In this document: piece by piece, positions 19,366-36,521 of the stretch
How positions within the stretch are numbered: the stretch's first letter is position 1
How the letters are laid out: each line of letters opens with the position of its first letter
NCBI GenBank assembly: GCA_035530655.1
Contig: DATKUK010000080.1
Span: forward strand, 4,534-68,533
Length of the DNA stretch: 64,000 bases
Reading direction: 5' to 3'
Source: Phycisphaerae bacterium
Lineage (GTDB): Bacteria > Planctomycetota > Phycisphaerae > UBA1845 > DATKUK01
Translations under genes and position numbers: made by a program
The notes under the pieces: generated by a model
Database searches by the model: none
Seen by the model: only the letters and a program-made list of their open reading frames with translations
Told to the model about the DNA's origin: nothing

Positions 19366-20871
19366 CTAGTCCGCTGGCTTGGCGCCCGTGCCGGTGCCGG
19401 GCTGCGCCTTTCTCCTGCTGACCGGGGCGGGCTCGCTCCGGCTGACCTGCACGATGGGAATGACGAACTCGCCGAACTCCTCGTCGTCGGTCTTGATCAC
19501 CAGCTTGTCCCCGCCCTTGGGCGGCTGGTAGTCCTCAGGCAGGGTCAGAGTGATGCGGTAGTTGTTGCGCTCCTGGCGGTGATCCAGCTCGACCTTGATG
19601 CGCTCGTCACTGGCCTGACACTCGAGAATCTTGACCGGCTCGTAGTGTAAGAATACATGATAGGGTGGGTGGCTTTCGCCCTCTGCGGGCGCGACAACCA
19701 ATATTTCGTGGGGTACGACACTGACCCGCTCCTGGGTGTTAGCCGATATGGGAGCGTTGGACTGGGTAATCTCTCGCTCGTTGGCCTTGGGGGCGACCTC
19801 ACTCCGACTGACCTGCACGATGGGAATGACCAACTCGGCGAACGCCTGCTCGTCCGTCTTGATCACCAGCTTGTCCCCGCCCTTGGGCGGCTGATAGTCC
19901 TCAGGCAGAGTTAGGGTGATGCGGTAGTCGTTATGCTCCGGGCGATGCTCCAGTTCGACCTTGATGCGCTCGTCACTGGCCTGACACTCGAGCACCGTGA
20001 CCGGCTCGTAGCGCATGAACGCATAGCGCGGACGGCTCTTGCCCTCCGTTGAAGAGAAAACCATGATCTTCCTGGGCACCACGGTAATCCGCTCGGGAAT
20101 GTAGGCCGACAGGGGTACCTTCAGTTGCGGCATCTTGGGCAGGTTGGTCTTGAGCAATACGTGGCCTTTGTGCATGCCTCGTTCGAGCGGCGGTTGAATC
20201 TGCGCCGTCAACAGAAAGCGCTTGCCTTCCTCCACCGTCTCCAGGGTCACGTTGAAGCCCTTCGGCGTGACCTCCACGATCTCCAATTCGAGAGGCTCAT
20301 CGGCGTTACTGGTCAGCTCCACCTGCTTATTCTGGCTTTGGGCCGGCTGGATTCTCCCGAATGTGAAACCGCCTTTGGGCTCCTTTTGAATGAGCTGCTT
20401 GACGGTTCCGTGGATCGACACCCGGGTCTGCTCGTTACTCGGGTCGTTCGTCCAGATGGTTACCGATTTGCGCACCGTGCCCTGCATCCCTTTGGTGTTC
20501 AGCGTGAAGGGCAGTTTTCCTTCCTTGCCCGGGGCAATCTGACGATCATAGGTCTTGATCACCGTACAGCCGCAACTGCCCTTGACCTTGGTGACCATCA
20601 GCGTGTCGTCACCGACGTTGCGCAGAATGATGGCGTGTTCCTTCTGCTGGTCGCCCCACATTTCGCCCAGGTCGAGCGACGCCTCGTCCACCTCGAGCTT
20701 CGGGCCCGTCTTGCCTGCCGCGACCGTGTCGGAGGCACCCGACGGCTGCGTCGAAGGTGCGTTTGTCTGCTGAGAACCAACCTGTACGGCCAGTACGACG
20801 GCCACCAACGCCGATAGGGCAACAATCCCCGCCGACGGCCAACCTGCCATCCGACTGCGTGACATAGTCAA
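19366..20871 (-). CDS. DUF1573 domain protein with duplicated C-terminal module
   Basis: Signal/TM N-terminus. DUF1573 signature ILRNVGDDTLMVTKVKGSCGCT. Two about 120-aa C-terminal repeats. Confidence 0.85.
   Translation of the reverse strand: MTMSRSRMAGWPSAGIVALSALVAVVLAVQVGSQQTNAPSTQPSGASDTVAAGKTGPKLEVDEASLDLGEMWGDQQKEHAIILRNVGDDTLMVTKVKGSCGCTVIKTYDRQIAPGKEGKLPFTLNTKGMQGTVRKSVTIWTNDPSNEQTRVSIHGTVKQLIQKEPKGGFTFGRIQPAQSQNKQVELTSNADEPLELEIVEVTPKGFNVTLETVEEGKRFLLTAQIQPPLERGMHKGHVLLKTNLPKMPQLKVPLSAYIPERITVVPRKIMVFSSTEGKSRPRYAFMRYEPVTVLECQASDERIKVELEHRPEHNDYRITLTLPEDYQPPKGGDKLVIKTDEQAFAELVIPIVQVSRSEVAPKANEREITQSNAPISANTQERVSVVPHEILVVAPAEGESHPPYHVFLHYEPVKILECQASDERIKVELDHRQERNNYRITLTLPEDYQPPKGGDKLVIKTDDEEFGEFVIPIVQVSRSEPAPVSRRKAQPGTGTGAKPAD
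19436..20167. repeat. In-frame tandem duplication, two units, period 366 nt
   Basis: 19436-19650 aligns with 19802-20016 at high identity (ctccgGctgacctgcacgatgggaatgac... vs ctccgActgacctgcacgatgggaatgac...). The remainder of each unit is more diverged. Confidence 0.85.
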
Positions 20872-23739: not shown

Positions 23740-24957
23740 ATGAGGACCATCGCCATCGCGAACCAGAAGGGCGGCTGTGGCAAGACGACGGTCGCTATCA
23801 ACCTGTCGGCAACACTGGCAAGGGAGGGTCAGCGCGTACTTCTGGTGGATATGGACCCGCAGGGTCATTGCGCCCTCGGGTTGGCCGTCCCGGAAGAGCA
23901 GCTCGAACTGACCATCGCCGACGTACTGATGGGTACCGACTCAGGCGAGCAGGTCGAGTTGAACCGGATCATCTGGCAGATCGCCACGAACTTCGACCTG
24001 GCGCCGTCGCGGATCGACCTGGCCGGTTTCGAGCAACGGATGGCCGGCGCGGACGATCGCGACCTGCGTCTCAAGAACACCTTGGCGGGCGTCGCCGAAC
24101 AGTATGACGTGGTCGTGATCGACTGCCCGCCGCACGTCGGTCTGCTGACGTTCAATGCGCTGCGGGCAGCCGGCGAGGTGATCGTGCCCGTGGACACGGG
24201 TTACTTCTCGCTGCACGGTCTGGGCCGCCAGTTGGAGACGATCGAGCACATCCGGCGCGAGGTGGATCAGGACTTGGTCGTCAAGGTCGTGGCCAATCTC
24301 TACGACGTGCGCACCAAGCTCGGGCGGGAGATGCTGGCCGAACTGCGGAAGCGCCACGGGAAGGTCATGTTCGAGACGTTTGTCAACTTCAACACGAAGT
24401 TGAAGGAGGCGGTCAGCCTGGGCCAGGCGATCACCGAGTACGATCCGTCGAGCATGGGTATGCGTGACTTCACAAAACTGGCGCGGGAGATGCTGGGGCA
24501 CGAGGCCGCGGCGGCGGCGGCGCGTCCCGCGGTCAAGGAGCTTCCAGCCGGGATACTGGATCGGGCCAATGAACTGGCCGCCAAGGCCGAGCAACTGCTG
24601 GCGACCTCTGCTCCGCTGGTGGGCGGTGAGAACATTCCGTCGGCCCCGGCGACCGACGAGGAGATCCAGCAGCGCATCGACCGGATCTACGGCGTCCGTC
24701 GTACCCCGGAGGGGGTCGAGTTCAGCACGCACGCGCCTGGGGCGAGCGAGGTGATGCTCGCCGGCGACTTCAACGATTGGCAGCCCGAGCGGATGACCGA
24801 ACGAGGCGAGCATGATTTCGCCGCGTTGCTGTCGCTCGAGCCGGGTAGGTATCAGTACCGCCTGGTGGTCGACGGGCGGTGGCAGCAGGATCCCTGCAAC
24901 CGTACGGTGGAGACCAACCCGTACGGGGAACTCAACAGCGTTGTCGAGGTCGATTGA
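23740..24957 (+). CDS. ParA/Soj-type ATPase fused to a C-terminal CBM48/AMPK-beta-like glycogen-binding module
   Basis: Trimmed to MRTIAIANQKGGCGKTT (deviant Walker A with signature Lys). The C-terminal 90 aa (VEFSTHAPGASEVMLAGDFNDWQPERM...GRYQYRLVVDGRWQQDP) match the CBM48/E-set pattern. Confidence 0.88.
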   Translation: MRTIAIANQKGGCGKTTVAINLSATLAREGQRVLLVDMDPQGHCALGLAVPEEQLELTIADVLMGTDSGEQVELNRIIWQIATNFDLAPSRIDLAGFEQRMAGADDRDLRLKNTLAGVAEQYDVVVIDCPPHVGLLTFNALRAAGEVIVPVDTGYFSLHGLGRQLETIEHIRREVDQDLVVKVVANLYDVRTKLGREMLAELRKRHGKVMFETFVNFNTKLKEAVSLGQAITEYDPSSMGMRDFTKLAREMLGHEAAAAAARPAVKELPAGILDRANELAAKAEQLLATSAPLVGGENIPSAPATDEEIQQRIDRIYGVRRTPEGVEFSTHAPGASEVMLAGDFNDWQPERMTERGEHDFAALLSLEPGRYQYRLVVDGRWQQDPCNRTVETNPYGELNSVVEVD

Positions 24958-26372
24958 TGCCGGTGCGACCGGGTCATGGCGGCAAGAGCATAGCCGACAT
25001 CGCCCATCTGTACCTTTCGGGGGCGAAGAATGATCCTGCCGCGGACGCATCGGCAGGCGGCGACGGGCAGCGGCCTGCTCTGCGCCTGGCTGGCGCAGTT
25101 GAACCAGCGAACGGCGCTGACTGTGTGGATGTGGTGGCGGTGGTCTGGGAGCATTTGGGGGCGGCTGCCACCAATGGCGCCCATGTATACGCGGAGCACC
25201 TTGCCCGGGCGGGTAAGAGAGTAGCGTTGTTGACGGTCGACGCGGCTGGGGCGGCGCTTCGAGTTTTGCACCGTACCGACGAGGCGCCGCTCCACACGTC
25301 GAAGGGCGCCGTCGAAGAGGGACTGACCGACCCGGAACATCTCGACTGCCTGGTTGGCGTGGTGGACCGTTTGGTCCTGCGGGTAGGGGGATCGGCCAGC
25401 CAGCACGCCGGCGCGCTGGCGGAAGGGGCGGGCAGCGTTTGCGTGCTGGGCCGCTGCGACGCCAACGCCTTGACGTTGAGCTACCAGGCGCTCAAGGCCA
25501 CTGTCCAGCGCTATCCCGACAAAAAGGTGTCGGTGTTCCTGCTGGATGCGGTCTCGGTCCAGGAGGCAGAAGAAGCCGCGCGGAAACTCACCGACCTGGG
25601 TGAGCGGTTCCTGGGTCGACGGCTGGCCTGCGAAGGCTGGTCTTTGCGCAATGGGGCGGTCGATTCGCGGATGATCCAGCATTGTGAAGCCACCGACGGG
25701 CAGTGGGCGCAACGGTGGATCGAGAAGCTGGGTCACTTTGTGGCGCGGTCGCGGTCGGCGTCGAATGGCGGCCATCTAAACGATGGTGTGGTCGCAGTCG
25801 CATCGAGTGGGCAGGAGAAAAGCGCGGCGGCTGGGGATGGGCCGTCCGCGCCGGGCCAGGCTGCCGAAGGGCCCGAAGAAAGTCCATCGCAGGCAGACGC
25901 GGCATCGGGCAACGGGGTGACGACCCTGGAGCCGGTCGACCGTCCCATTGCGTCGGCGGAGGACCTTTACCGGTTCGTATGCAGTCGGGTCCGAGGGATC
26001 GAAGCCGGCCGGGAGGACACGGTGCTCAACGTGGCCTGTGCACCAGCCGGCCAACTCGCCCGTGTGGTGGTCACCCGGGATGGCTGGCGTATCGCAACAG
26101 TGTCCGTCTGCGGAGACGGCGGTGCGGCCGTGCAGACGGCTCGCGAGGCCCTGGACTGGGCCGATCAGGTACTCAGCCAGCCGCCGGCGCGGGGGCGCCA
26201 AATCGTGGTCGCATGCACGCACGGCGGTCTCGAGGCGAAAGTACAGGCCGAGAGGGTGGGGCTGCCGGCACGGGTGGTCCAGGTGCGTCACTTCTCGCTG
26301 GGTTCGCGACTGGGGGTTCTTGTGGATGATTGGAGTTGCGGGGCGTTGGGCGTCGATCCGACCTTTCGCTGA
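24957..26372 (+). CDS. Hypothetical protein, possible degenerate ParA/MinD-like partner
   Basis: ATG at 24957 overlaps the ParA stop (TGATG). The segment VVAVVWEHLGAAATNGAHVYAEHLARAGKRVALLTVD has the beta-strand/P-loop/helix layout of MinD/ParA but lacks the GKT lysines. Acidic, disordered middle. Confidence 0.55.
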   Translation: MPVRPGHGGKSIADIAHLYLSGAKNDPAADASAGGDGQRPALRLAGAVEPANGADCVDVVAVVWEHLGAAATNGAHVYAEHLARAGKRVALLTVDAAGAALRVLHRTDEAPLHTSKGAVEEGLTDPEHLDCLVGVVDRLVLRVGGSASQHAGALAEGAGSVCVLGRCDANALTLSYQALKATVQRYPDKKVSVFLLDAVSVQEAEEAARKLTDLGERFLGRRLACEGWSLRNGAVDSRMIQHCEATDGQWAQRWIEKLGHFVARSRSASNGGHLNDGVVAVASSGQEKSAAAGDGPSAPGQAAEGPEESPSQADAASGNGVTTLEPVDRPIASAEDLYRFVCSRVRGIEAGREDTVLNVACAPAGQLARVVVTRDGWRIATVSVCGDGGAAVQTAREALDWADQVLSQPPARGRQIVVACTHGGLEAKVQAERVGLPARVVQVRHFSLGSRLGVLVDDWSCGALGVDPTFR

Positions 26373-27289: not shown

Positions 27290-27384
27290 TTCAACGGCTC
27301 CTGAATGGTGCGTATCGGGGTGGATGGGCCAGGTCGGTTGGTTGGGGGGAGGTATTGTCGGGCGCGTCGTATGGAAGCGAGGCT

Positions 27385-27900
27385 ATGCGCTGTCCATTCT
27401 GCCGTGTTGACGACGATCGGGTGATCGACTCGCGGGCCAGCGAGGGTGGCAGCGTGGTCCGCCGCCGTCGGCAGTGCAACGCCTGCGGCAAGCGGTTCAC
27501 CACCTATGAGCGGATCGAGGAGGCGATCAAGCTGGCGGTGATCAAGCGTGACGGCACGCGCCTGCCGTACGACCGGCGGAAGATTTTGGCGGGCTTGCAG
27601 CGTGCGTGCTGGAAGCGGCCGGTGGGCACGCCGGCGCTGGAGGCGCTGGCCGACCACGTGGAGGAGGAGATCTTCCGGCGGTTCGACCGCGAGGTGCCCA
27701 GTCACTTCATCGGCGAGCAGTGCGCCAAGAGGCTGCGGCGGCTGGATCAGGTGGCCTACGTGCGGTTCGCCAGCGTGTATCATCAGTTCAAGGACGTGGG
27801 GCAGTTCATCGACGAAGCCAAACAGGTCCTCGAATCATCACGCGAGGAGACGCCCGGTCAGGGCGGCCTGTTCGATCAGGGGGCGGAAGGCGAGCAGTGA
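27385..27900 (+). CDS. nrdR: Transcriptional repressor NrdR
   Basis: MRCPFCRVDDDRVIDSR...QCNACGKRFTTYE zinc ribbon followed by an ATP-cone. Confidence 0.95.
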   Translation: MRCPFCRVDDDRVIDSRASEGGSVVRRRRQCNACGKRFTTYERIEEAIKLAVIKRDGTRLPYDRRKILAGLQRACWKRPVGTPALEALADHVEEEIFRRFDREVPSHFIGEQCAKRLRRLDQVAYVRFASVYHQFKDVGQFIDEAKQVLESSREETPGQGGLFDQGAEGEQ

Positions 27901-28319
27901 GGGCCGATTGATGGGCGCTGCGATCCGGGGTCAGTTTTTGTGGGGCAGGCTTTCCACACCTCGGGGGCATAGTCCGCAAGCTGCATGCCCACGTCTTACA
28001 AAGGCGTGATGACCCCTTGCGGGCGGCTTTTCCACAGGTCATAATTAGGATGTAGGCAAGAGCGGCGATTTGCAGTTCAGGTATGGGGATCGAATAAGCC
28101 TGGGGCAAGGCCCGCGAGGCGCGAATGGGAAGCTTCCCCCGTAGGTGGCGGGCGTCCTTTTGGGAAGGTGCTGCTGCAATCGCGGATGGATCAGCAAGCC
28201 CCGCTTGAGCGGACGGGTGCGCCCTTGGGTAATCGCATGGCGCGCCTTGCGGCACGCTCCGAGTGGTGCATAAACTGTTGTGTAGGCGCTGTTGTTGGGG
28301 CAAGTGGAGATTGGGAACG

Positions 28320-28913
28320 ATGCAAGCCGGGGCAAGACGCATCGACAATCGTCGGGATATACTACTGTTGCTTCTGTATTCACCGGGGCGAACGGACGAA
28401 GTAAATGAACCTATCGTGGGGCGCACGCGTTTTATGAAGATGCTCTATTTGTTCAAAGAGGAAGCCCTCACGCATTTCCGCAAGGGCACGAGCATCGATA
28501 GCGAGAGTTTTTACCAGTTTTTCCCGTGGCACTTTGGCCCCTTCTCGCGGGATGTCTACGATGATCTAATGTTCTTTGAACTGCGCGGCTTTGTGAAGCC
28601 ACAAGATTCGGAGGAAGAAACGCTCCCTGAATCTGCCGCCGAGTGGGAGGAGTGGGTTGCCCTTTCGCGCTCAGATACGGGCGAAAGTCCTGTCACCGAA
28701 TATGATGAGCAGACGTTTCGCCTTACGAAGAGGGGCGCAGATTTCGCCGCGGATCTGTATGCAAGTCTGACCGGGGAGCAAAAGCGCCTCTTACGGGAGT
28801 TCAAAGGGCGTCTGCAGACCGTACCGCTTCGGGCACTTCTGCGGTACGTATACGAGAATTATGAGGGAATGACTGCCAAGTCGAAGATCAGGGAGGAGGT
28901 GGTAGGCGGTTAG
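28320..28913 (+). CDS. SocA/Panacea (DUF4065)- or YwgA-like wHTH protein
   Basis: ATG at 28320 preceded by GGAGA. DILLLLLYSPG...IVGRTRFMKMLYLF...FFPWHFGPFSRDVYDDLMFFELRGFV matches the Panacea/YwgA pattern (KLQKLLYL..., y.yGPyS..l..dl). AT-richer than the flanks. Confidence 0.65.
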   Translation: MQAGARRIDNRRDILLLLLYSPGRTDEVNEPIVGRTRFMKMLYLFKEEALTHFRKGTSIDSESFYQFFPWHFGPFSRDVYDDLMFFELRGFVKPQDSEEETLPESAAEWEEWVALSRSDTGESPVTEYDEQTFRLTKRGADFAADLYASLTGEQKRLLREFKGRLQTVPLRALLRYVYENYEGMTAKSKIREEVVGG

Positions 28914-28980
28914 TAATGTACCTGACTCAGTATGGCCTTCGCTTGTCGCTTCGGCGATTCCAATCGTACTCGGCGCTGCC

Positions 28981-29433
28981 GTGACCTACCTTCGGCCTTT
29001 CGTTGAATCGCAGAAGGACCTCCGGTCGCGTATCAGACTGCGCCGCGAGGCGTTGTTGGAGCAGTTGGCTGGCACGCACACCAAACTACTTCAGCATGTC
29101 CGGCGCATAGCGTCTGAGGATCGCTACGCTATGCTTCGTGGCGATGGCAAGGAAAACCCGGACCTCGTTGGCGAACTAACTCGGGAGACGTTCCGATTGT
29201 TCACCGTCTTTCATCATTTGGAACTCCTGAAAAGAGTGGTTCGACTTGCCTATACAGGACTCTTGATCACCGTGTGCATTGGCATAGTCGGTGCGCTATT
29301 GGCATGGCTACAGATTCAGGCGCGCACATGGGTTCTGATGGTCGGCATCGTCCTTGTAGTTGTGCAAATCGCACTTATTGCCCTGCTCTATTGGTCATCG
29401 TGCCGACTCGAAACATATGAAGACGTTACATAG
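28981..29433 (+). CDS. Coiled-coil protein with two C-terminal transmembrane helices (candidate membrane effector)
   Basis: GTG start at 28981 as in the track. Helical N-terminal half, then LLITVCIGIVGALLAWL and WVLMVGIVLVVVQIALIALLYW. The open frame extends upstream to 28906 and encodes another hydrophobic stretch but has no canonical start there. Confidence 0.55.
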   Translation: MTYLRPFVESQKDLRSRIRLRREALLEQLAGTHTKLLQHVRRIASEDRYAMLRGDGKENPDLVGELTRETFRLFTVFHHLELLKRVVRLAYTGLLITVCIGIVGALLAWLQIQARTWVLMVGIVLVVVQIALIALLYWSSCRLETYEDVT

Positions 29434-29437
29434 CACA

Positions 29438-29851
29438 ATGAGCGAACCGGGCGAGGCGCACATTATCAGGTCTCTGATTCAGTTTCTCCGAGGCGAGGGC
29501 TACCGCGTACGCCTCGAGGTGCCTAACATGGGCCAAAGCGCGGATCTTGTCGCGACCCGGAGTCGATGGGTAACCTTTGTGGAGGCGAAGCGGCGGGACT
29601 GGCGACGAGCTATGGAACAATGCCGAGCTCACGAGCCGGTCGCTGATTTCATCTGCATCGCGCTGTCACTTGGCAAACTCTCGGATACGTTGTTGGGCGA
29701 GGTACGGGAATGTGGATACGGGCTCATCCAATGTGACGCTGAAACCCTATCGTGCCAGTGGGTTGTCGAGCCAACGCGTAATGGGAAGGTGTGGGGACCG
29801 CAGCGGCGCCGCGTTGCGATCGCGATGAGGGCAATCGAGTATGCAGATTGA
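29438..29851 (+). CDS. Minimal PD-(D/E)xK nuclease-fold protein
   Basis: ATG at 29438 (alternative ATG at 29417 overlapping the upstream gene). Helix-strand layout with SADLVA...WVTFVEAKR gives D-x13-E-x-K. The stop overlaps the start of the next gene. Confidence 0.6.
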   Translation: MSEPGEAHIIRSLIQFLRGEGYRVRLEVPNMGQSADLVATRSRWVTFVEAKRRDWRRAMEQCRAHEPVADFICIALSLGKLSDTLLGEVRECGYGLIQCDAETLSCQWVVEPTRNGKVWGPQRRRVAIAMRAIEYAD

Positions 29852-31184
29852 CCATTGGATGCTATTCAGCACATTTGCTGAGCAACGGCACTTTGAATAC
29901 CCGAGGACGGGTACATACAAAGGCGTCGTTATTAACGCCAACATGGCGGCGCACGCACCAGCGGGGCTTGCGGCATTCCTGTTGGGCAAGACCGCAGGCA
30001 TGGAATACATTGTTGATCCGCTCACTCATGCTTTTCAGCACGACCCGGAAGTGATATGCGACGACACAGGCAAGCCGAGGTCCTCGATTAAGGGTCTGGC
30101 AGAGCACTACGGCGAACCTATTGATGCGCTCGTCGGATCGCGCCCTGTCCTTCCGAGACATTTCATCAAAGACAACGTGCTCCGAAGCTTCACAGAACGG
30201 TGCGTTGAATTTCAGCTGAATCACCTCAGGCGTTTCATGGCGGCGGACGACGCGGCGAAGTACCTAGAGGAGGACGAGGTCGATGTCCCACCTTACGCTG
30301 TGGTGGCGCCCTACTTCTTCCTCACAGAAACGACATACGGGAATTGGCTTCCCATTTGCCGAGGCGCTGCCCAATACGCGCTTGAAAAGGTGCGGCGCCA
30401 CAACAGGGAGGTCAGAGTGTTCGGCGCAGTTGTCGTCAGTCAAGGCATCTTGCTTGACAATGCGGCCCAGGATGAGATCGCAAGGGAGTTCAATGCAGTC
30501 GAGTTGGACGGATACCTGCTATGGATTGACAATCTGGACGAACAGACCGCCAGCAGGGGTGAGTTGGCGGGTCTGCTGGCGCTGGTGCGCAGGCTCCGAA
30601 TGGACGGACGGCGAGAAGTAGTAAACCTTCATGGCGGGTACTTTTCGATCCTCGCAGCTGGCGTCCTCGCCCAGAATGCTCTATCAGGGGTGACACACGC
30701 GCCCGAATTCGGGGAGTTTCGCCCGGTGATTCCGGTTGGGGGGGGAATTCCAATTGCGCGGTATTACATTCCAACTCTGCATGCGCGCGTGCGGTACCGA
30801 GACGCGCTTCGCGTGTTTCAGGCGAAAGGTTGGCTTGAGGATGCAGCAACCTTTTACTCGAACATCTGTGATTGCGATGCATGTAAGGACGTGCTCAGTG
30901 GTGACATAGCCAACTTTCGCCTTTTTGGCCAGAGCAACGTAAGGAGCGTGCGTCGCGCGCATAACATTGTGCGTATCGATTTTCCAACAACGGAAGCGAA
31001 GCTGCGATGCCTTCGTCACTATCTGCAACGAAAGCACATAGAGTACGTCAGAGCTGCGACAGCATCGAAAGACGAGCTACAATCCGATTTGCGTGAGGGG
31101 AAGACGTCTTTGGAAGAGGTGGTCGGTCTCGAAGGCGTAGCCCATCTTGATCGATGGAGATTAGTTTTGGGTAGTGCGGATTGA
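29841..31184 (+). CDS. tRNA-guanine transglycosylase (TGT)/DpdA-like TIM-barrel protein
   Basis: 447 aa. CDCDAC followed by His 26 residues after the last Cys (..RRAHNIV) reproduces the TGT zinc site CxCxxC-X25-H (E. coli Tgt CDCYTC...IHNL). Alternating strand/helix pattern upstream. ATG overlaps the nuclease gene end by 11 nt. Confidence 0.7.
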   Translation: MQIDHWMLFSTFAEQRHFEYPRTGTYKGVVINANMAAHAPAGLAAFLLGKTAGMEYIVDPLTHAFQHDPEVICDDTGKPRSSIKGLAEHYGEPIDALVGSRPVLPRHFIKDNVLRSFTERCVEFQLNHLRRFMAADDAAKYLEEDEVDVPPYAVVAPYFFLTETTYGNWLPICRGAAQYALEKVRRHNREVRVFGAVVVSQGILLDNAAQDEIAREFNAVELDGYLLWIDNLDEQTASRGELAGLLALVRRLRMDGRREVVNLHGGYFSILAAGVLAQNALSGVTHAPEFGEFRPVIPVGGGIPIARYYIPTLHARVRYRDALRVFQAKGWLEDAATFYSNICDCDACKDVLSGDIANFRLFGQSNVRSVRRAHNIVRIDFPTTEAKLRCLRHYLQRKHIEYVRAATASKDELQSDLREGKTSLEEVVGLEGVAHLDRWRLVLGSAD

Positions 31185-31353
31185 CCGACCACCTGACCGA
31201 CCTCATTGCCTTAACGCGCGGGGCAAGTCTTGTCAGCGTCTCCGGTGCGCAGGCTGGCCGAAGGAAGGAGCACGCGCTCCCGTTACTTCGTTGGCCGGCA
31301 AGGAAAGGATGCTGACGGCTTCCGATGCCCCGGAACCGGTAGCATACAACGAC

Positions 31354-31410
31354 GATCGAGTCCCCCGCCCGGTGCCCCATCCTTGCGGAGCAAGGTTGAG
31401 GGATGAATGC
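31354..31410. repeat. Dispersed hairpin repeat, long-form copy (tail-head junction)
   Basis: gatcgagtcccccgccc ... CCCCATCCTTGC-gga-GCAAGGTTGAGGGATG. Shares the GCAAGG-TG-GGATG arm and the GATCG-GTC-CCGCCC block with 31629-31700 and 36551-36626. Confidence 0.7.
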
Positions 31411-31628
31411 ACAAGCAAGAAGAACATGCCCACGCGGAGATGCTGGGTGTATGATCGTTCACACGTCGTAAGTGGTGCGCGAAGCAGAGACAACCGTCTT
31501 TGCACAAGGGGCGTGGGCATGCCACCCGGGGCAGACGAATAAGACAAAGGATGGCGGGTGAAACCCGCCCTACGTGTCTGGTGCAACACAAGACACTGCT
31601 CAAGAGCCCGCCGCGGCGGGTCACACCC

Positions 31629-31700
31629 GCGCAGCAAGGGTGAGGGATGAAAGATCATCGTGTCCCCCGCCCTCGAAGAGGGCGGGCCACCCACCCGACG
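31629..31700. repeat. Dispersed hairpin repeat, long-form copy
   Basis: gcgcagcaagggtgagggATGaaagatcatcgtgtcccccgccc + stem-loop CCCGCCC-tcgaaga-GGGCGGG + ccacccaccc. About 80% identical over the first 45 nt to 36551-36593. Confidence 0.75.
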
Positions 31701-31861
31701 TGTCTTGAACTTGCAGGCAGGAGCCTCGATGAGGTATACGAGTATCATGACGACCGGTCGGTCTTGTCTGGCATGTCACCGGCCGTGCTGCACCCGTGGC
31801 GTAAGCAAGAGCCGTCCGGCTGCGGGCGACGTTCATTCGGGGCCAGCAAGTGGTGGTGCCC

Positions 31862-34630
31862 ATGCTTTGGCGCAGGCGTTGGCTTCTACACGGCGTGATG
31901 GGCTTGGCCTTTGCGCAGACGGCTTGGGCGGCCGCGACGAGCAGCAATGACAGGCAGGTGGTCATTTCGGTTCAGGGCCTGCCCCTTCCGGGCGAAACGA
32001 GCGTGGTGGCGACGGCCTACCGCACCGTGCTGAAAGCTTTTCTCGAGGAGTATCCGGCCTACAAGGTTGAGCCGTTCGTGATGCCGGACGTCGCCGGGCT
32101 GGGGATGGATACCGGTCCGCTCATGGCGATTGCCGCGGGCACACCACCACATGCCATCTACGTCAACTTCCGTCAGTCGTCGAGCTACATCGCGCAGGGG
32201 TTCGTCGAGCCGATGGAGAGCCTGCTGGCGCGGATCCTCAGCGACGACGAGCGCGTGCGCCGGACGGACGCCGCGGGTGGGTGGTTGGCCGACCCGACCG
32301 AGCGGGAGATCGCTCACGCGCTGGAACTCATCCGACAGCGCGTGGCCGGGCCGGTCTGGCCGGTGGTCTACCGCGTCGATGACACCAGGCCGGAATCGGG
32401 CAGACACGTGTGGGCCATTCCCATCAACACGTTTGTGATGGCCCTGTTGTACCGCAAGGACCTGTTCTTTGAGGCAGGGCTGGACCCCGATCGTCCGCCG
32501 ACCACCTGGGAAGAGTTTCGCCAGTACGCCAAAACACTCACGCGAGGCCGCCAGTACGGGCTGATGCTATTTCGCGTGCCCATCAGTTGGAGCATCTACA
32601 GCTTTCTGGTCTCCAACGGCGCGCAGGTTCTGGAGCAGGCGACCGACGGGAGCTGGCGCGCCATTTACGACACGCGTGCCGCGGCTGAGGCAATTTACTA
32701 CGTCTGGCAACTGGTGAGCGGCGATAAGTCGGTCAGCCTGAGCGCGGCCGAGCTGGAGTGGCAGCGGGGCGAGATCGCCATGCGCTTCAACTACCTGGAC
32801 GACGAGCAACTCAGCGGCATCAACCCTCAACTGGTGGGCATCGCACCGGTGCCCCTGTCGCCGCTAGGCGCTCGCAACAGCGAGTTGAATTGCCGGATGC
32901 TGGGCGTCTTCAGCGACTCGACGCCGGAGCAGAAGCTGGCGGTGATGCGCTACATCTGGTTCACCACGGGTGAGCGAGCCCAGCAGATTCGCACGCGAGT
33001 TTTGGTGGAGAACGGGTTTGGGCGATTCGTGAATCCGGACTTGCTGCGGAAGTTCGGCTACGAACACGCGCTGCGGCAGGTGCCCGAGGGCTGGCGCGAG
33101 ACCTTTGGGATCGCCTTGGCGAATGGCATCCCCGAGCCCTACGGCCGCAACACGCAGAACATCTATCGGTATATGGCCGAGCCGATCGACGCGGCGCTGG
33201 AGTTGCCGTTGGGCGACCTGCCGCGCGAGGATGCACTGGACGTGATCGAAAGTCTTCTGCGCGAATCGGCGCGCGAGGTCAACACGAAGGTTCTGGGTCA
33301 CCTGACCGCACAGGAGATGCGGAAGCGTCGGATCATCGGTGGCGCGGTCCTCGCATTGGTGCTGTTAGGGTTCGCTGTGAGTCTGGGCCGGGTGTGGCGG
33401 TCTTTCAGCCGTGGCAGTGCCGCCGCCATCGAGAATCCAAGGTGGCGGAAGTTCATCTGGGGCTACATCTTGCTGGTTCCGGCGCTGGTGCTGTTGGTGC
33501 TGTGGCACTACGTGCCGCTGGTCGGGGGTTTGGGTATCTCGCTGACCGATTATCAGCTCGTACGCGACAGCACGATCGTGTTCGTGGACAACTTCGCCAA
33601 CGTACTGTTCGACGAAAAGGTATGGGCAGCTCTGGGGCGGACGTTTTACTTCGTGGCGCTGATGCTTGGTCTGGGCTTCTGGCCGCCCATCGCGCTGGCG
33701 ATCCTGCTACAGGAGGTGCTCACGAGCACGGCGAAGTATGTGTACCGCACGATTTTCTACCTGCCGGCGGTGGTCAGCGGCGTGCTCATGATGTTCTTGT
33801 GGAAGCAGCTTTACGCACCGACCTCCGACGGCGTGCTCAACCAGTTGCTGCTGAGCCTGAACTCGCTGGGCCCGCTGTCGGCGACGCTGCTGAAGTGGTT
33901 TCTGCTGGGTGTGTGGCTGTCGCTGATCGGCCTGCTGATCTGGCTGCCCATCAAGCTGCGCGAGGTGAGCTGGCGGCTTCGGCTGAGCCTGTGGATGGTG
34001 GCGGCGGCGCTGGTGGGGGTAACGGTCTGGCCGCTGGCGGAGGCCTACCTGGGACCCTCGGCCCTGGAGGTGCAGGCGCGGGGGCTCGACCCGGCGAACG
34101 TCGGCGGTTTGGGCGCGCTGCTCGCGTCGCTGGCGCATCTTGTCGGGCCCTTCGGGCTGGAGCCGTTGGGGTGGATTCAGTCGCCGCGCATGGCGATGTT
34201 GTGCGTGGTCATCCCGTTCGTCTGGGCGAGTATGGGGCCTGGGTGCATCCTTTACCTGGCCGCCCTTAAGACCGTGCCGGACGAGCTTTATGAGGCCGCC
34301 GACATCGACGGCGCCGGCATCTGGAACAAGTTGTTTTACATCACGCTGCCGACGCTGAAGTATCTGATCGCGATCCAGTTCATCTTCGCCGTCATCATGG
34401 CCTTTCGGGGTGGTACCGACATGATCCTGGCGCTGACGGGCGGCGGCCCGAGCAACGCGACGCAGATTCTGGCGTTGGAGATTTTCTTTCGCACCTTTTT
34501 GGAGTTGAAGTTCGGAATCGGTGCAGCCATGGCCTGGCTGCTGGGCGGGCTGCTGATCGGCTTGACGGCTCAGCAACTCAAGATGCTTTCGCGAGCCGAG
34601 TTCAGAACGGCCGCCCGCACCGACGGCTGA
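31862..34630 (+). CDS. Fused extracellular solute-binding protein / ABC transporter permease (carbohydrate type)
   Basis: Signal peptide MLWRRRWLLHGVMGLAFAQTAWA and an approximately 450-aa SBP-like domain. Next comes a TM anchor and a MalF-type permease with EAADIDGAGIWNKLFYITLP (EAA loop). GTG codons at 31850-31858 are alternative starts. Confidence 0.82.
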   Translation: MLWRRRWLLHGVMGLAFAQTAWAAATSSNDRQVVISVQGLPLPGETSVVATAYRTVLKAFLEEYPAYKVEPFVMPDVAGLGMDTGPLMAIAAGTPPHAIYVNFRQSSSYIAQGFVEPMESLLARILSDDERVRRTDAAGGWLADPTEREIAHALELIRQRVAGPVWPVVYRVDDTRPESGRHVWAIPINTFVMALLYRKDLFFEAGLDPDRPPTTWEEFRQYAKTLTRGRQYGLMLFRVPISWSIYSFLVSNGAQVLEQATDGSWRAIYDTRAAAEAIYYVWQLVSGDKSVSLSAAELEWQRGEIAMRFNYLDDEQLSGINPQLVGIAPVPLSPLGARNSELNCRMLGVFSDSTPEQKLAVMRYIWFTTGERAQQIRTRVLVENGFGRFVNPDLLRKFGYEHALRQVPEGWRETFGIALANGIPEPYGRNTQNIYRYMAEPIDAALELPLGDLPREDALDVIESLLRESAREVNTKVLGHLTAQEMRKRRIIGGAVLALVLLGFAVSLGRVWRSFSRGSAAAIENPRWRKFIWGYILLVPALVLLVLWHYVPLVGGLGISLTDYQLVRDSTIVFVDNFANVLFDEKVWAALGRTFYFVALMLGLGFWPPIALAILLQEVLTSTAKYVYRTIFYLPAVVSGVLMMFLWKQLYAPTSDGVLNQLLLSLNSLGPLSATLLKWFLLGVWLSLIGLLIWLPIKLREVSWRLRLSLWMVAAALVGVTVWPLAEAYLGPSALEVQARGLDPANVGGLGALLASLAHLVGPFGLEPLGWIQSPRMAMLCVVIPFVWASMGPGCILYLAALKTVPDELYEAADIDGAGIWNKLFYITLPTLKYLIAIQFIFAVIMAFRGGTDMILALTGGGPSNATQILALEIFFRTFLELKFGIGAAMAWLLGGLLIGLTAQQLKMLSRAEFRTAARTDG

Positions 34631-34646
34631 GCGGAGACGCTGCCCC

Positions 34647-36521
34647 ATGCCCATCATCTCCCGCATCGAGACTCAGAGCCGTCGAGGCAGGTGTATTCAC
34701 GCGGCCATTTTCCTCGTGCTGACGGTCGGCGGTCTGACCATGGTATATCCGTTCGTGGTCATGATCGGCGGCTCGCTGCGCAGCGAGATGGACGAGACCG
34801 AGATGACGGCGGTTCCGCGCTACCTGGTGGATCAGGACGTGCTCTATCGGCGCTTCCTGGAGGCCAAGTACAACCAGGACGTATCGGCGCTGAACGTCGC
34901 GCACGTGCAGCGGAACTTCAGCTTTCGGTCGGTCCGTGCACCTCTCCCGCTGGTGGATCGGCGGGTGGAGGACTTCCGGCAGTTCCTGGAGGCGACGCCG
35001 CTGCCGGACCACTGGCAGGTCCTGGGCGCCGCCTATGGGGTCAAGCGCATCGCGCCGCGGTACATGCGTCAGCTTCAGGATCGGCTGAAGGAGCGCTTCC
35101 GGGGCGACATCGTTGCACTCACCCGGCAGACGGGCCTGACCTTGTCGAGTTGGAGCGAGGTGGTCCTGCCGCCGCCGGCGTGGCTCAAGCAGGGCTACGA
35201 CTACCAGGACAACATCCTCTACGAGACCTATCTGGCGCTCCTGGCCCAGGCGCCGCCGGTGGAGCGGCAGCTCGTCAGTGTCAGCGGCTACTTCGTCGAG
35301 ACGGTCATCGTGCCGCGCTACGGGCAGTCGTCGATCGAGCTGTACAACAAAGCACACCGCCGGACGATCGAATCACTGGACCACTTCGTTCTGCCCTGTA
35401 CGGTGCCGGGGCTCGACCAGCCGCAGCTTCGCGCGGAATGGATCACGTTCGTCCAAGAGGAGTTGAACGCCTCCTTCGTGCTGCTGCCGTCGGAGCTGGC
35501 ACCGAGTTACCGCGAGTGGCTGCGGCGGCGCTACCAGGCGATCGGCCAGCTCAATCGCACGTGGGGAACCACGCATGCAAACTTCCGGCTCATCCCACTG
35601 CCGGCCGGCGAGTGGCTTCGCGGCGCCCGCCGCATGGACTACCGGCAGTTCCTATTGGAGCAGCCGGTCGAGCGCTATCGGCTCGCCGGTCCGGAGTACG
35701 CCTGGCGGCAGTGGCTGACAGGCCGCTACGGTTCGGTTGAGCGTCTCAATGACGCCTATCAGAGCCGCCACGCCGACTTCCGGCACGTCCCGATGCCGGT
35801 GGCCGAGTACGAGTATCGCTACACGGTGGATAACTCCGCGTCGCTGCGGAGACAGTTCGCCGCGCGCAACTTCATCACCGTCCTGCGGGAGTTGTTCGTT
35901 CAGGGCCGGGCCTTCGTAAACACGGCCATCTTCTGCGCGTTGGCGATCGCAGCGTCGCTGCTGATCAACCCCCTTGCCGCGTACGCACTGTCGCGGTTCC
36001 AGCTACCCGGCACGTACAAGATCCTGCTGTTGCTGATGGCGACGATGGCCTTCCCACCGATGGTGGCCATGATCCCCCAGTTCATCCTGCTGCGGGAACT
36101 CCACCTCCTCAACACGTTTGTTGCCCTGCTGCTGCCGGTGGCTGTTAACGGCTACCTGATCTTCCTGCTGAAGGGATTCTTCGACTCGCTGCCCCGCGAA
36201 CTGTATGAGGCCGCCCGCGTCGATGGCGCTTCGGAGGTGCGGATGTTCTTCCAGATCACGATGTCGTTGAGCAAGCCGATCCTGGCCGTGGTGGCGCTGC
36301 AAGCCTTCAACATCGCCTATATGATGTTTCTGTACGCCCTCGTGGTGTGCCCGCGCCCGGATATGTGGCTGCTGAGCGTGTGGCTGTATCAGTTCCAGCG
36401 GGATGCGTGCAGTTCGGTGGTCTTCGCGTCGGTACTGGTGGCGAGCGTCCCCAGCCTACTGGTCTTCGTGTTCGCCCAGAACATCATCATGCGGGGCATC
36501 GTGGTGCCGTCGGAGAAGTAA
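34647..36521 (+). CDS. ABC transporter permease (MalG-type) with an approximately 380-aa extracytoplasmic insertion
   Basis: One N-terminal TM, a large soluble segment, then a permease core with EAARVDGASEVRMFFQITM (EAA loop). Confidence 0.82.
   Translation: MPIISRIETQSRRGRCIHAAIFLVLTVGGLTMVYPFVVMIGGSLRSEMDETEMTAVPRYLVDQDVLYRRFLEAKYNQDVSALNVAHVQRNFSFRSVRAPLPLVDRRVEDFRQFLEATPLPDHWQVLGAAYGVKRIAPRYMRQLQDRLKERFRGDIVALTRQTGLTLSSWSEVVLPPPAWLKQGYDYQDNILYETYLALLAQAPPVERQLVSVSGYFVETVIVPRYGQSSIELYNKAHRRTIESLDHFVLPCTVPGLDQPQLRAEWITFVQEELNASFVLLPSELAPSYREWLRRRYQAIGQLNRTWGTTHANFRLIPLPAGEWLRGARRMDYRQFLLEQPVERYRLAGPEYAWRQWLTGRYGSVERLNDAYQSRHADFRHVPMPVAEYEYRYTVDNSASLRRQFAARNFITVLRELFVQGRAFVNTAIFCALAIAASLLINPLAAYALSRFQLPGTYKILLLLMATMAFPPMVAMIPQFILLRELHLLNTFVALLLPVAVNGYLIFLLKGFFDSLPRELYEAARVDGASEVRMFFQITMSLSKPILAVVALQAFNIAYMMFLYALVVCPRPDMWLLSVWLYQFQRDACSSVVFASVLVASVPSLLVFVFAQNIIMRGIVVPSEK

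What the first reader, a model, noticed from the sequence alone, without database searches (positions are those of the whole stretch)
23740..26372. ParA ATPase fused to a glycogen-binding (CBM48) module, coupled to a degenerate ParA-like partner
The ParA has an intact deviant Walker A (KGGCGKT) and ends in a clear AMPK-beta/CBM48-type carbohydrate-binding domain. The next gene starts on the ParA stop (TGATG). Its N-terminal 250 aa look like a MinD/ParA fold whose P-loop has lost the catalytic Lys/Thr (EHLGAAATNGA), followed by an acidic disordered region. ParA-family ATPases position diverse cargos such as plasmids, carboxysomes and chemoreceptor arrays through a partner protein. A polysaccharide-binding ParA suggests positioning or partitioning of glycogen or polyglucan granules, or tethering to a glycan structure. 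As far as I know, this has not been characterised.
Basis: partly seen in the sequence, partly recalled or inferred. Interest (0 to 1): 0.55.

Follow-up and report, generated by a model that had tools for sequence, protein, structure and literature searches.

The report
Glycogen-binding ParA with pseudo-ATPase partner
A Phycisphaerae bacterium carries a cargo-positioning ATPase of the ParA family fused to an intact-looking glycogen-binding module, followed by a catalytically dead ParA/MinD-like partner; this uncharacterised pair is widespread in its bacterial class and may be a system for positioning sugar-storage granules.

Summary
Gene 1 (23740-24957, +) is a Soj-type ParA. All catalytic residues are intact, and 3 of 4 Soj DNA-binding basic residues are kept. 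Its C-terminal AMPK-beta/CBM48 module keeps the residues needed for glycogen binding in all 69 relatives examined.

Gene 2 (24957-26372, +) overlaps the ParA stop (TGATG). It is a real, selected gene (dN/dS 0.22) with no Pfam or NCBIfam match. It has four parts:
- a conserved basic N-terminal helix
- a MinD/FlhG-fold domain with no P-loop (hhalign 98.8%; Foldseek E 2.7e-8)
- an acidic disordered linker

The fusion occurs in at least 516 species genomes; all 80 retrieved loci are labelled Phycisphaerae or other Planctomycetota, apart from two unclassified 'bacterium' records. It never has a ParB nearby. The partner lies directly downstream in about 24 of 80 loci, spread over several deep clades. 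Every partner homologue whose upstream DNA could be read follows a ParA-CBM48.

I infer, but have not shown, that a nucleoid-bound ParA holds alpha-glucan granules directly and that the partner's N-terminal helix acts as the ATPase activator. No paper in the searched library describes this. It is a new variant of a known kind, of moderately high interest.

The parts
23740..24957 (+). parA-CBM48 gene (405 aa plus stop); public accession HUW83209.1, named 'AAA family ATPase [Phycisphaerae bacterium]'
   Evidence: ORF and Pfam matches; identical gene call in public assemblies; public name
23740..24513 (+). Soj-type ParA ATPase core (aa 1-258)
   Evidence: Closest solved structures are ParA 8ray (2e-48) and Thermus Soj (9e-44). 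The signature Lys, Walker A Lys and Thr, Asp40 and the Walker B Asp are invariant in 69/69 relatives. Bacillus subtilis (Bs) Soj DNA-binding positions R189, K201 and R218 are kept as R, R/K and K/R; R215 is Phe (residue list from PMC6393308).
23767..23787 (+). Deviant Walker A motif KGGCGKT (aa 10-16); the Cys is a family signature
   Evidence: Read from the sequence; KGGCGKT is found in nearly all of the 80 related loci
24553..24618 (+). Conserved amphipathic helix in the ParA-CBM linker (aa 272-293, ILDRANELAAKAEQLLATSAPL)
   Evidence: Invariant A, L, A, LLAT and L columns in the 9-sequence alignment A2 and in 14 further relatives. Its function was not tested.
24688..24954 (+). CBM48 / AMPK-beta-type carbohydrate-binding module (aa 317-405)
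   Evidence: Pfam PF16561 and PF02922; phmmer against AMPK beta1 CBM 1z0n gives 6e-13. Equivalents of W100, K126, W133 and G147 are W, R, W and G in 69/69 relatives, L146 is Y/F and N150 is N in 65/69. Mutations W100G and K126Q abolish glycogen binding in AMPK (PMC6274970).
24957..26372 (+). Partner gene (471 aa plus stop), translationally coupled through TGATG; public accession HUW83210.1, 'hypothetical protein'
   Evidence: dN/dS is 0.22 against the 85%-identical orthologue: 0.16-0.17 in the two folded domains and 0.44 in the linker. No Pfam, NCBIfam or PADLOC match.
24981..25019 (+). Conserved N-terminal peptide GKSIADIAHLYLS (aa 9-21; family consensus K/R-S-L-S-E-I-S-H-L-F-L-S), modelled as a helix at aa 12-20, basic, followed by a flexible spacer (aa 21-56)
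   Evidence: Column counts over 103 sequences: H 80, L 92, F/Y 91, L 100, with R/K just upstream. Helix in both AF2 models. pI 9.7 for aa 1-25. The motif lies right after the ParA stop in related loci.
25125..25766 (+). MinD/FlhG-fold pseudo-ATPase domain (aa 57-270)
   Evidence: hhalign against the FlhG-like alignment: probability 98.8%, E 7.9e-17. Foldseek: FlhG 4rz2 at 2.7e-8, followed by FleN, HypB, MinD and ParA. pLDDT is above 90 over most of the domain.
25146..25172 (+). Degenerate P-loop position (aa 64-72, WEHLGAAAT) in place of S-G-K-G-G-V-G-K-T
   Evidence: Column-by-column alignment to FlhG. None of the 400-620-aa family members carries GK[ST] at the P-loop position. The family consensus at this position is x-S-H-L-G-x-x-A.
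25767..25922 (+). Acidic disordered linker (aa 271-322)
   Evidence: pLDDT is mostly below 50 (39-50 per 10-residue block). D+E is 7 against K+R of 1, with pI 4.05. dN/dS is 0.44.
25923..26339 (+). Folded C-terminal domain of unknown kind (aa 323-461; strand, then alpha-beta-beta-beta-alpha-beta-alpha-beta-beta)
   Evidence: pLDDT is about 90 or above. It is conserved across the family (alignment A4). It has no Pfam or PDB sequence match.

Best explanation
This is a two-gene module of the ParA/MinD positioning type. The ATPase itself carries the domain that holds the cargo.

**Shown by sequence**
- ParA-CBM48 has every residue needed to bind and hydrolyse ATP as a sandwich dimer.
- It keeps three of the four basic residues that Soj uses to bind non-specific DNA.
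- It ends in an AMPK-beta-type CBM48 with a conserved alpha-glucan binding site.
- It has no ParB next to it.
- The downstream protein descends from a MinD/FlhG-type ATPase but cannot bind nucleotide through a P-loop.
- That protein begins with a short, basic, highly conserved helix on a flexible tether.

**Inferred**
- ATP-bound ParA-CBM48 dimers coat the nucleoid and hold cytoplasmic glycogen (alpha-glucan) granules through two CBM48 modules per dimer.
- The partner's N-terminal helix docks at the ParA dimer interface and stimulates ATP hydrolysis, as the N-terminal peptides of ParB, MinE, PomX and FlhG do for their NTPases.
- Its pseudo-ATPase and C-terminal domains give it a location or an oligomeric state.
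- Cycles of binding and release then spread the granules over the nucleoid, so that both daughter cells inherit them.
- In lineages without an adjacent partner, the activator is encoded elsewhere, is a different protein, or is absent.
For: - **ATPase.** Catalytic residues are invariant in 69/69 family members, and BsSoj R189, K201 and R218 equivalents remain basic (with PMC6393308).
- **CBM.** It matches the AMPK beta1 CBM at 6e-13. The equivalents of W100, K126, W133 and G147 are W, R, W and G in 69/69. W100G and K126Q abolish glycogen binding in AMPK (PMC6274970).
- **No ParB.** No ParB-like ORF lies within 6 kb in 81 loci or anywhere in the 64-kb window.
- **Partner fold.** It has the MinD/FlhG fold without a P-loop.
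- **N-terminal helix.** It is the most conserved stretch of the aligned N-terminal regions of an otherwise fast-evolving protein.
- **Coupling.** The genes show overlapping or abutting stop/start coupling in the window and in the P0005, P0130 and P0153 loci.
- **Linkage.** All 7 partner homologues with readable upstream DNA follow a ParA-CBM48. About 24 of 80 genome loci have the partner directly downstream, in several deep clades.
- **Selection.** Both genes are under purifying selection.
Against: - Nothing here shows binding to glycogen, DNA or the partner.
- If ParA itself holds the cargo, the classic ratchet geometry does not apply directly. In that geometry the activator sits on the cargo and ParA on the matrix.
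- About two thirds of ParA-CBM48 loci have no partner within 6 kb. The partner therefore cannot be an obligatory adjacent component.
- No glycogen-metabolism gene is linked to the locus. Recurring neighbours are HldE, GT2, a Glyco_trans_1_2 protein, an MBL-fold protein and NrdR.
- One Soj DNA-binding Arg (R215) is Phe throughout the family.
- I could not check whether these genomes also carry a canonical Soj/ParB pair.
Confidence: 0.45

Rival explanations
1. The CBM48 is a sensor, not a cargo handle, so this would be a glycogen-sensing regulator. As in AMPK, it would report the state of the glycogen store to the ATPase. The ParA would then tune chromosome segregation, replication initiation or cell division to energy reserves. 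Phycisphaerae lack FtsZ (my own knowledge), so division control is open there. The partner would modulate the switch.
For: - The CBM is of the AMPK-beta type, whose known role is regulatory.
- The ATPase core is closest to chromosomal Soj/ParA, and Soj has regulatory roles in Bacillus (my own knowledge).
- nrdR lies about 1 kb downstream in the window clade and in about 6 other loci.
- A published integrative Soj-NrdR model exists in PDB (9a6n, listed).
Against: - No regulatory target was identified.
- The nrdR linkage is confined to a minority of loci.
- Nothing distinguishes sensing from tethering at the sequence level.
Confidence: 0.2
2. This is the ordinary chromosome-partition ParA of these bacteria, working with a ParB encoded elsewhere. 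The CBM48 is an accessory anchor, for example to polar glycogen or a scaffold. The partner is a lineage-specific regulator.
For: - The best structural relatives are chromosomal ParA/Soj.
- The DNA-binding residues are largely kept.
- There is one copy per locus, and the gene is very widespread in the class.
Against: - No ParB-like ORF lies within 6 kb in 81 loci or in the 64-kb window, whereas chromosomal parA and parB are normally adjacent (my own knowledge).
- The score against the NCBIfam ParA partition model is 121.9 bits, below its cut-off of 180.
- The neighbourhood is not origin-proximal in character and varies between loci.
Confidence: 0.15
3. This is a positioning or assembly factor for an envelope-polysaccharide machine, analogous to BcsQ for cellulose synthase. 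The CBM48 would bind a nascent non-glycogen glycan or a protein, not storage granules.
For: - Recurrent neighbours are sugar-nucleotide and glycosyltransferase genes. HldE is divergent upstream in the window, in two closely related loci (L082, L083) and in about 11 genome loci; L084 has only a cytidylyltransferase gene at that position. A GT2 gene is also nearby. A 600-aa Glyco_trans_1_2 protein lies directly upstream in 7 loci.
- Pfam also reports a BcsQ match, though it is weaker than the ParA matches.
Against: - The binding-site residues match those of alpha-glucan binders precisely.
- The ParA-CBM48 architecture leaves no room for a secretion signal or membrane segment: the ParA core begins at residue 1 and Pfam domains cover most of the 405 aa. 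The CBM would therefore meet cytoplasmic polymers only.
- None of these neighbours is universal.
Confidence: 0.12

Closest known systems
Chromosomal ParA/Soj of ParABS systems (e.g. Thermus Soj 1wcv, ParA 8ray, H. pylori Soj 6iuc)
   Same: The ATPase core is the best sequence match (E 2e-48 to 9e-44). It has the same deviant Walker A and catalytic Asp, and most of the non-specific DNA-binding basic residues.
   Different: It carries a C-terminal linker helix and a CBM48. No ParB gene is nearby. Its Walker A has Cys (KGGCGKT). The downstream partner is not a ParB but a MinD-fold pseudo-ATPase.
McdA/McdB carboxysome positioning and other orphan ParA cargo systems (PomXYZ, PpfA, ParC)
   Same: An orphan ParA-type ATPase is encoded with a small operon partner. 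That partner evolves fast, is partly disordered and has a conserved N-terminus. The proposed role is to distribute a cytoplasmic body over the nucleoid.
   Different: In those systems the cargo is recognised by the partner, not the ATPase. Here the cargo-binding domain is fused to the ATPase, the cargo would be a polysaccharide, and the partner has a MinD fold. Membership of any of these families was not shown; McdA matches only weakly (1e-11).
FlhG/FleN (MinD-like regulator of flagellar number) and its N-terminal activator helix for FlhF
   Same: The partner's central domain is most similar to FlhG/FleN in sequence profile and in fold. The layout is the same: a short N-terminal helix, a flexible spacer, then the MinD-like domain. 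In FlhG, that helix activates another SIMIBI NTPase (my own knowledge).
   Different: The partner has no Walker A at all. Its N-terminal motif is LSEISHLFLS, not DQAxxLR. It has an extra acidic linker and a C-terminal domain. It is genomically tied to ParA-CBM48, not to flagellar genes.
AMPK beta-subunit CBM / CBM48, and plant PTST proteins (coiled coil plus CBM48 that target proteins to starch)
   Same: The domain family is the same and passes the Pfam gathering threshold. The key glycan-contact residues are the same. In PTST, a helical segment precedes a CBM48 that brings a partner to a glucan granule (my own knowledge).
   Different: This is a bacterial cytoplasmic protein fused to a ParA ATPase. 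It has no kinase or starch-synthase context. K126 is Arg.

Membership tests
ParA/MinD (deviant Walker A) ATPases - gene 1 | Deviant Walker A KGGxGK[ST] with the signature N-terminal Lys | tested here: met
   KGGCGKT in the window. The signature Lys, Walker A Lys and Thr are invariant in 69/69 relatives.
ParA/MinD (deviant Walker A) ATPases - gene 1 | Catalytic Asp after strand 2 (Bs Soj D40) and Walker B Asp (D125) | tested here: met
   Both are Asp in 69/69 relatives.
ParA/MinD (deviant Walker A) ATPases - gene 1 | ATP-dependent sandwich dimer and ATP hydrolysis stimulated by a partner | not testable with these tools
   This needs biochemistry or multimer modelling.
Chromosomal ParABS (Soj/Spo0J) | Non-specific DNA-binding basic patch (Bs Soj R189, K201, R215, R218) | tested here: inconclusive
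   Three of the four positions remain basic in 68-69 of 69 relatives; R215 is Phe in 68/69 (residue list from PMC6393308). Binding itself was not tested.
Chromosomal ParABS (Soj/Spo0J) | Adjacent parB (spo0J) gene | tested here: not met
   A phmmer search with Spo0J found no hit (E <= 1e-3) among the ORFs of 81 loci (6 kb on each side) or of the 64-kb window. A ParB elsewhere in the genome is not excluded.
CBM48 / AMPK-beta glycogen-binding module | Match to the family model above the curated threshold | tested here: met
   PF16561 scores 53.8 bits against a cut-off of 26.8, and PF02922 scores 28.7 against 22.4. The 1z0n match is 6e-13.
CBM48 / AMPK-beta glycogen-binding module | Carbohydrate-contact residues (AMPK beta1 W100, K126, W133, G147, N150) | tested here: met
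   The equivalents are W, R, W, G and N. W, R, W and G are invariant in 69/69 relatives and N is present in 65/69. The role of these residues is taken from PMC6274970. K to R is a conservative change.
CBM48 / AMPK-beta glycogen-binding module | Actual binding of glycogen or alpha-glucan | not testable with these tools
   This needs a pull-down or ITC experiment.
MinD/FlhG/FleN ATPases - gene 2 (partner) | MinD-type fold and detectable homology | tested here: met
   hhalign gives 98.8% probability and E 7.9e-17. Foldseek gives FlhG at 2.7e-8, and 47 of the top 50 hits are MinD/ParA-type or related SIMIBI NTPases.
MinD/FlhG/FleN ATPases - gene 2 (partner) | Walker A P-loop (GKGGxGK[ST]) | tested here: not met
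   The window has WEHLGAAAT at that position. No family member has GK[ST] there. The partner is therefore a pseudo-ATPase derivative and not a member of the active family.
MinD/FlhG/FleN ATPases - gene 2 (partner) | FlhG N-terminal DQAxxLR activator motif; C-terminal amphipathic membrane-targeting helix | tested here: not met
   The N-terminal motif differs: (K/R)SLSEISHLFLS. No terminal amphipathic helix is present; a folded domain sits there instead. The helix at aa 250-269 (W..W..KLG.F) was not analysed further.
McdAB-type carboxysome positioning | McdA-like ATPase plus McdB, next to carboxysome genes | tested here: not met
   McdA matches only weakly (1e-11 against 2e-48 for Soj-type ParA). 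Among the window ORFs that were scanned against Pfam, none is a carboxysome gene.

The most novel reading that the evidence does not exclude
This would be a dedicated partitioning machine for glycogen granules. A nucleoid-riding ParA grips a polysaccharide cargo directly through a fused CBM48. It is driven by an activator that evolved from an FlhG/MinD ATPase by losing its P-loop while keeping an 'N-terminal activator helix on a tether' design. It would be the first ParA/MinD system for a carbohydrate storage body, and the first with the cargo handle on the ATPase.
Probability: 0.35. Interest if true: 0.78.

Novelty: new variant of a known kind. Interest (0 to 1): 0.62.

Why it matters
ParA/MinD ATPases are the general bacterial solution for placing chromosomes, plasmids, carboxysomes, chemoreceptor arrays, flagella and division sites. 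In the characterised systems I know of, a separate adaptor recognises the cargo.

- **A new cargo class.** A ParA with its own glycogen-binding module, conserved in at least 516 species genomes of one bacterial class, would add a polysaccharide storage granule to that list.
- **A different geometry.** The cargo handle would sit on the ATPase itself, which the usual models do not describe.
- **An open question made testable.** It would show directly whether and how bacteria control the number, spacing and inheritance of glycogen granules.
- **Pseudo-enzyme evolution.** The partner is a clear case in the SIMIBI class: a MinD/FlhG fold that lost nucleotide binding throughout a whole family yet stays under selection.

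Both proteins are currently annotated only as 'AAA family ATPase' and 'hypothetical protein'.

Tried and rejected
- **Single-sequence searches with the partner.** They gave only 5 close homologues, no Pfam or NCBIfam match and a marginal Soj hit. The exhaustive profile search was needed to reveal the family.
- **Third word-indexed search.** I ran it with the 103-sequence alignment and it returned only 6 proteins, so it was wasted.
- **First AF2 model.** Built from 6 sequences, it was poor (pLDDT 54). I replaced it with the 103-sequence model.
- **C-terminal domain of the partner.** A profile search against PDB and Pfam scans of 18 members gave nothing. Foldseek against viral structures gave nothing useful. 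PDB Foldseek lists were filled by hits to the N-terminal domain. My idea of a degenerate PD-(D/E)xK-like fold rests only on the alpha-beta-beta-beta-alpha-beta order and a DxR...LLAVA pattern, and it is untested.
- **Hidden partners in partner-less loci.** I tried a relaxed HMM search, an N-terminal motif scan in three frames and inspection of downstream ORFs. None was found.
- **ParA residues that distinguish partner-bearing from partner-less loci.** I found none.
- **A universally conserved neighbour.** There is none; several apparent 'clusters' were antisense shadow ORFs typical of high-GC DNA.
- **Defence-system reading.** PADLOC gave only trivial P-loop matches, so I rejected it.
- **Artefact or non-coding reading of gene 2.** Its GC3 (0.74) is lower than its neighbours' (0.79-0.85). 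I rejected this reading because of dN/dS, the conserved synteny and the confident fold.
- **Literature.** Six full-text searches combining ParA with CBM48, glycogen granules, AMPK1_CBM, Phycisphaera, glycogen-binding domain or orphan ParA found no description of this fusion.
Full report
**1. The observation**

The region holds two co-directional genes exactly as described. Gene 1 runs from ATG 23740 to TGA 24955-24957 and encodes 405 aa. Gene 2 starts at the ATG that shares a base with that stop (TGATG) and ends at 26372, encoding 471 aa. SD-like GAGG motifs precede both starts. Public assemblies that carry the identical proteins call the same two genes. NCBI names them 'AAA family ATPase' and 'hypothetical protein' of a Phycisphaerae MAG.

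The wider window looks like ordinary chromosome. It carries PriA, NrdR, HldE, transporters and glycoside hydrolases.

**2. Gene 1 is an intact Soj-type ParA with a competent-looking CBM48**

Pfam gives AAA_31 at 1e-51, AMPK1_CBM at 2.3e-14 (above the gathering score) and CBM_48 at 1.7e-6. The closest solved structures to the ATPase core are chromosomal ParA/Soj proteins: 8ray at 2e-48 and Thermus Soj at 9e-44. McdA and MinD are far weaker.

I aligned 69 family members with Bacillus subtilis (Bs) Soj.
- The signature Lys, the Walker A Lys and Thr, Asp40 and the Walker B Asp are invariant.
- Three of the four Soj non-specific DNA-binding residues stay basic: R189 is R, K201 is R/K and R218 is K/R.
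- R215 is Phe.

The C-terminal module matches the AMPK beta1 CBM at 6e-13. The positions whose mutation abolishes or weakens glycogen binding in AMPK are W100, K126, W133 and G147 (PMC6274970). In the family they are W, R, W and G in 69/69 sequences. N150 is N in 65/69, and L146 is Y or F.

Between the core and the CBM lies a conserved amphipathic helix, consensus LLRQADxLAxxAExLLATSxPL. The Walker A is KGGCGKT in almost every relative.

**3. Gene 2 is a real, selected gene for a four-part protein**

Its GC3 (0.74) is lower than that of its neighbours. However, dN/dS against an 85%-identical orthologue is 0.22 overall: 0.16-0.17 in the two folded domains and 0.44 in the linker.

An exhaustive profile search found 199 representatives at E <= 1e-3. 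Most are proteins of 400-620 aa without any Walker A. The weaker hits are true FlhG/MinD proteins with KGGVGKT and the DQAxxLR N-terminus. With a 103-sequence alignment, AlphaFold reached a mean pLDDT of 79.5.

| Part | Residues | Evidence |
|---|---|---|
| Basic N-terminal helix, GKSIADIAHLYLS (family consensus K/R-S-L-S-E-I-S-H-L-F-L-S) | 9-21 | The best-conserved stretch of the aligned N-terminal regions; a disordered spacer follows |
| MinD/FlhG-fold domain | 57-270 | pLDDT above 90 over most of it; hhalign against an FlhG-like alignment 98.8%, E 7.9e-17; Foldseek FlhG 4rz2 at 2.7e-8; 47 of the top 50 hits are MinD/ParA-type or related SIMIBI NTPases |
| Acidic disordered linker | 271-322 | pI 4.05, pLDDT mostly below 50 |
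| Confident alpha/beta domain of unknown kind | 323-461 | No Pfam or PDB sequence match |

In the MinD/FlhG-fold domain, the P-loop position reads WEHLGAAAT where FlhG has SGKGGVGKT. The family consensus there is xSHLGxxA.

**4. Distribution and linkage**

I scanned one genome per species with patterns from the CBM region. The 80 best are Phycisphaerae/Planctomycetota MAGs, apart from two records labelled only 'bacterium'. They include Tepidisphaerales, Sedimentisphaerales, Phycisphaerales and a Phycisphaera mikurensis bin. All 120 best protein hits share the fused architecture.

A family HMM finds the partner immediately downstream in about 24 of 80 loci, and nowhere else in those loci. On a ParA tree, these loci form several deep clades, including the window's own clade. 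Other clades have no co-directional downstream gene.

In the other direction, the linkage is strict. The window partner and six homologues (P0005, P0155 at two sites, P0153, P0260, P0130, P0226) all lie directly downstream of a ParA-CBM48, or of its C-terminal end at a contig edge. In the window and in the P0005, P0130 and P0153 loci, the two genes overlap or abut at the stop/start.

No other neighbour is universal.
- An MBL-fold gene and nrdR follow the pair in the window clade and in a few other loci.
- HldE is divergent upstream in about 11 loci.
- A Glyco_trans_1_2 protein of about 600 aa precedes the pair in 7 loci.
- No ParB-like ORF occurs within 6 kb in any locus, or anywhere in the window.

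**5. Mechanism**

*Shown:*
- an ATP-competent orphan Soj-type ParA with a conserved alpha-glucan-binding module;
- a translationally coupled MinD-fold pseudo-ATPase with a conserved basic N-terminal helix on a tether.

*Inferred from established knowledge of ParB, MinE, PomX and FlhG activator peptides, and of nucleoid-matrix ParA systems:* ATP-bound dimers bind the nucleoid and hold glycogen granules through the CBM48. The partner's helix triggers hydrolysis. Cycling then spreads and partitions the granules.

I put this at about 0.45. Three weaknesses limit it:
- The geometry is unusual, with the cargo handle on the ATPase.
- Two thirds of loci lack an adjacent partner.
- No glg genes are linked.

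*Rivals:*
- a glycogen-sensing regulatory ParA (0.2);
- the ordinary chromosomal ParA with an accessory anchor (0.15);
- a BcsQ-like factor for an envelope-glycan machine (0.12).

**6. Comparison and novelty**

The module works like an orphan ParA cargo system of the McdAB or PomXYZ kind, but it belongs to none of those families. Its ATPase is a Soj-clade ParA that fails the 'adjacent ParB' criterion. Its partner passes the fold test for MinD/FlhG but fails the P-loop and DQAxxLR tests, so it is a pseudo-ATPase derivative. The CBM passes both tests that could be run for AMPK-beta/CBM48.

Six full-text searches found no description of a ParA-CBM48 fusion or of ParA-dependent glycogen granule positioning. 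The library does not include most subscription journals. I rate the finding a new variant of a known kind, with interest 0.62.

**7. Limits**

- There is no experimental evidence of any binding or activity.
- Whole genomes could not be searched, so three questions stay open: whether a canonical parAB co-exists, whether glg genes co-occur, and whether partner genes sit unlinked in the 'partner-less' clades.
- The fold of the partner's C-terminal domain is unnamed.
Soj was verified at eight positions; Spo0J was not.

Noticed in passing
window 28000-31800: This segment has lower GC (0.56-0.58 against 0.63-0.66 around it) and starts right after nrdR. It holds four co-directional ORFs (216, 150, 163 and 447 aa) with no Pfam match. 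The first weakly matches the PADLOC candidate defence gene PDC-M19A (2e-11) and a type I specificity model. It may be an inserted island. There is no tRNA in the window.
   Followed up: partly
window 26288-26372: The 3' ends of the partner gene (+) and of the convergent MBL-fold gene (-) overlap by 85 nt. A similar overlap of 79-85 nt is seen in relatives L082, L084, L085 and L086, so it is conserved and not an annotation accident.
   Followed up: partly
L001 9252-9650: On a 4.6-Mb contig, the partner gene is broken across three reading frames between the N-terminal peptide (MADSRSSGIEKIAHLFIAG) and the MinD-like domain. This is either assembly indels or a pseudogene. The close relatives L003 and L004 have it intact.
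   Followed up: no
window 27355-27900; also L001, L084-L086: nrdR lies about 1 kb downstream of the ParA operon in the window clade and in about 6 other loci. The Foldseek hit list for the partner contains a published integrative model of a Soj-NrdR complex (9a6n). This may be coincidence, or it may hint at a ParA-NrdR connection.
   Followed up: no
window 19366-20871 (-): The DUF1573 / HYDIN-type Ig protein carries an internal tandem duplication of about 100 aa. The two copies are near-identical: ...ERITVVPRKIMV...IVQVSRSE and ERVSVVPHEILV...IVQVSRSE.
   Followed up: no
window 31850-36521: ABC transporter genes show unusual fusions. One 926-aa protein combines a solute-binding domain with a permease. 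The next gene combines a permease with a GH42-like fragment.
   Followed up: no
window 50000-52852 (-): An ABC exporter (transmembrane plus ATPase domains) is fused to a C-terminal DUF1854 domain, giving a 950-aa protein.
   Followed up: no
L002 3251-5071; L091 287-2119; also L005, L008, L012, L013, L038: In a sister clade, a protein of about 600 aa with a C-terminal Glyco_trans_1_2 domain sits directly upstream of ParA-CBM48 and is co-directional with it. In L091 it occurs together with the partner. It is a possible additional component in some lineages.
   Followed up: partly
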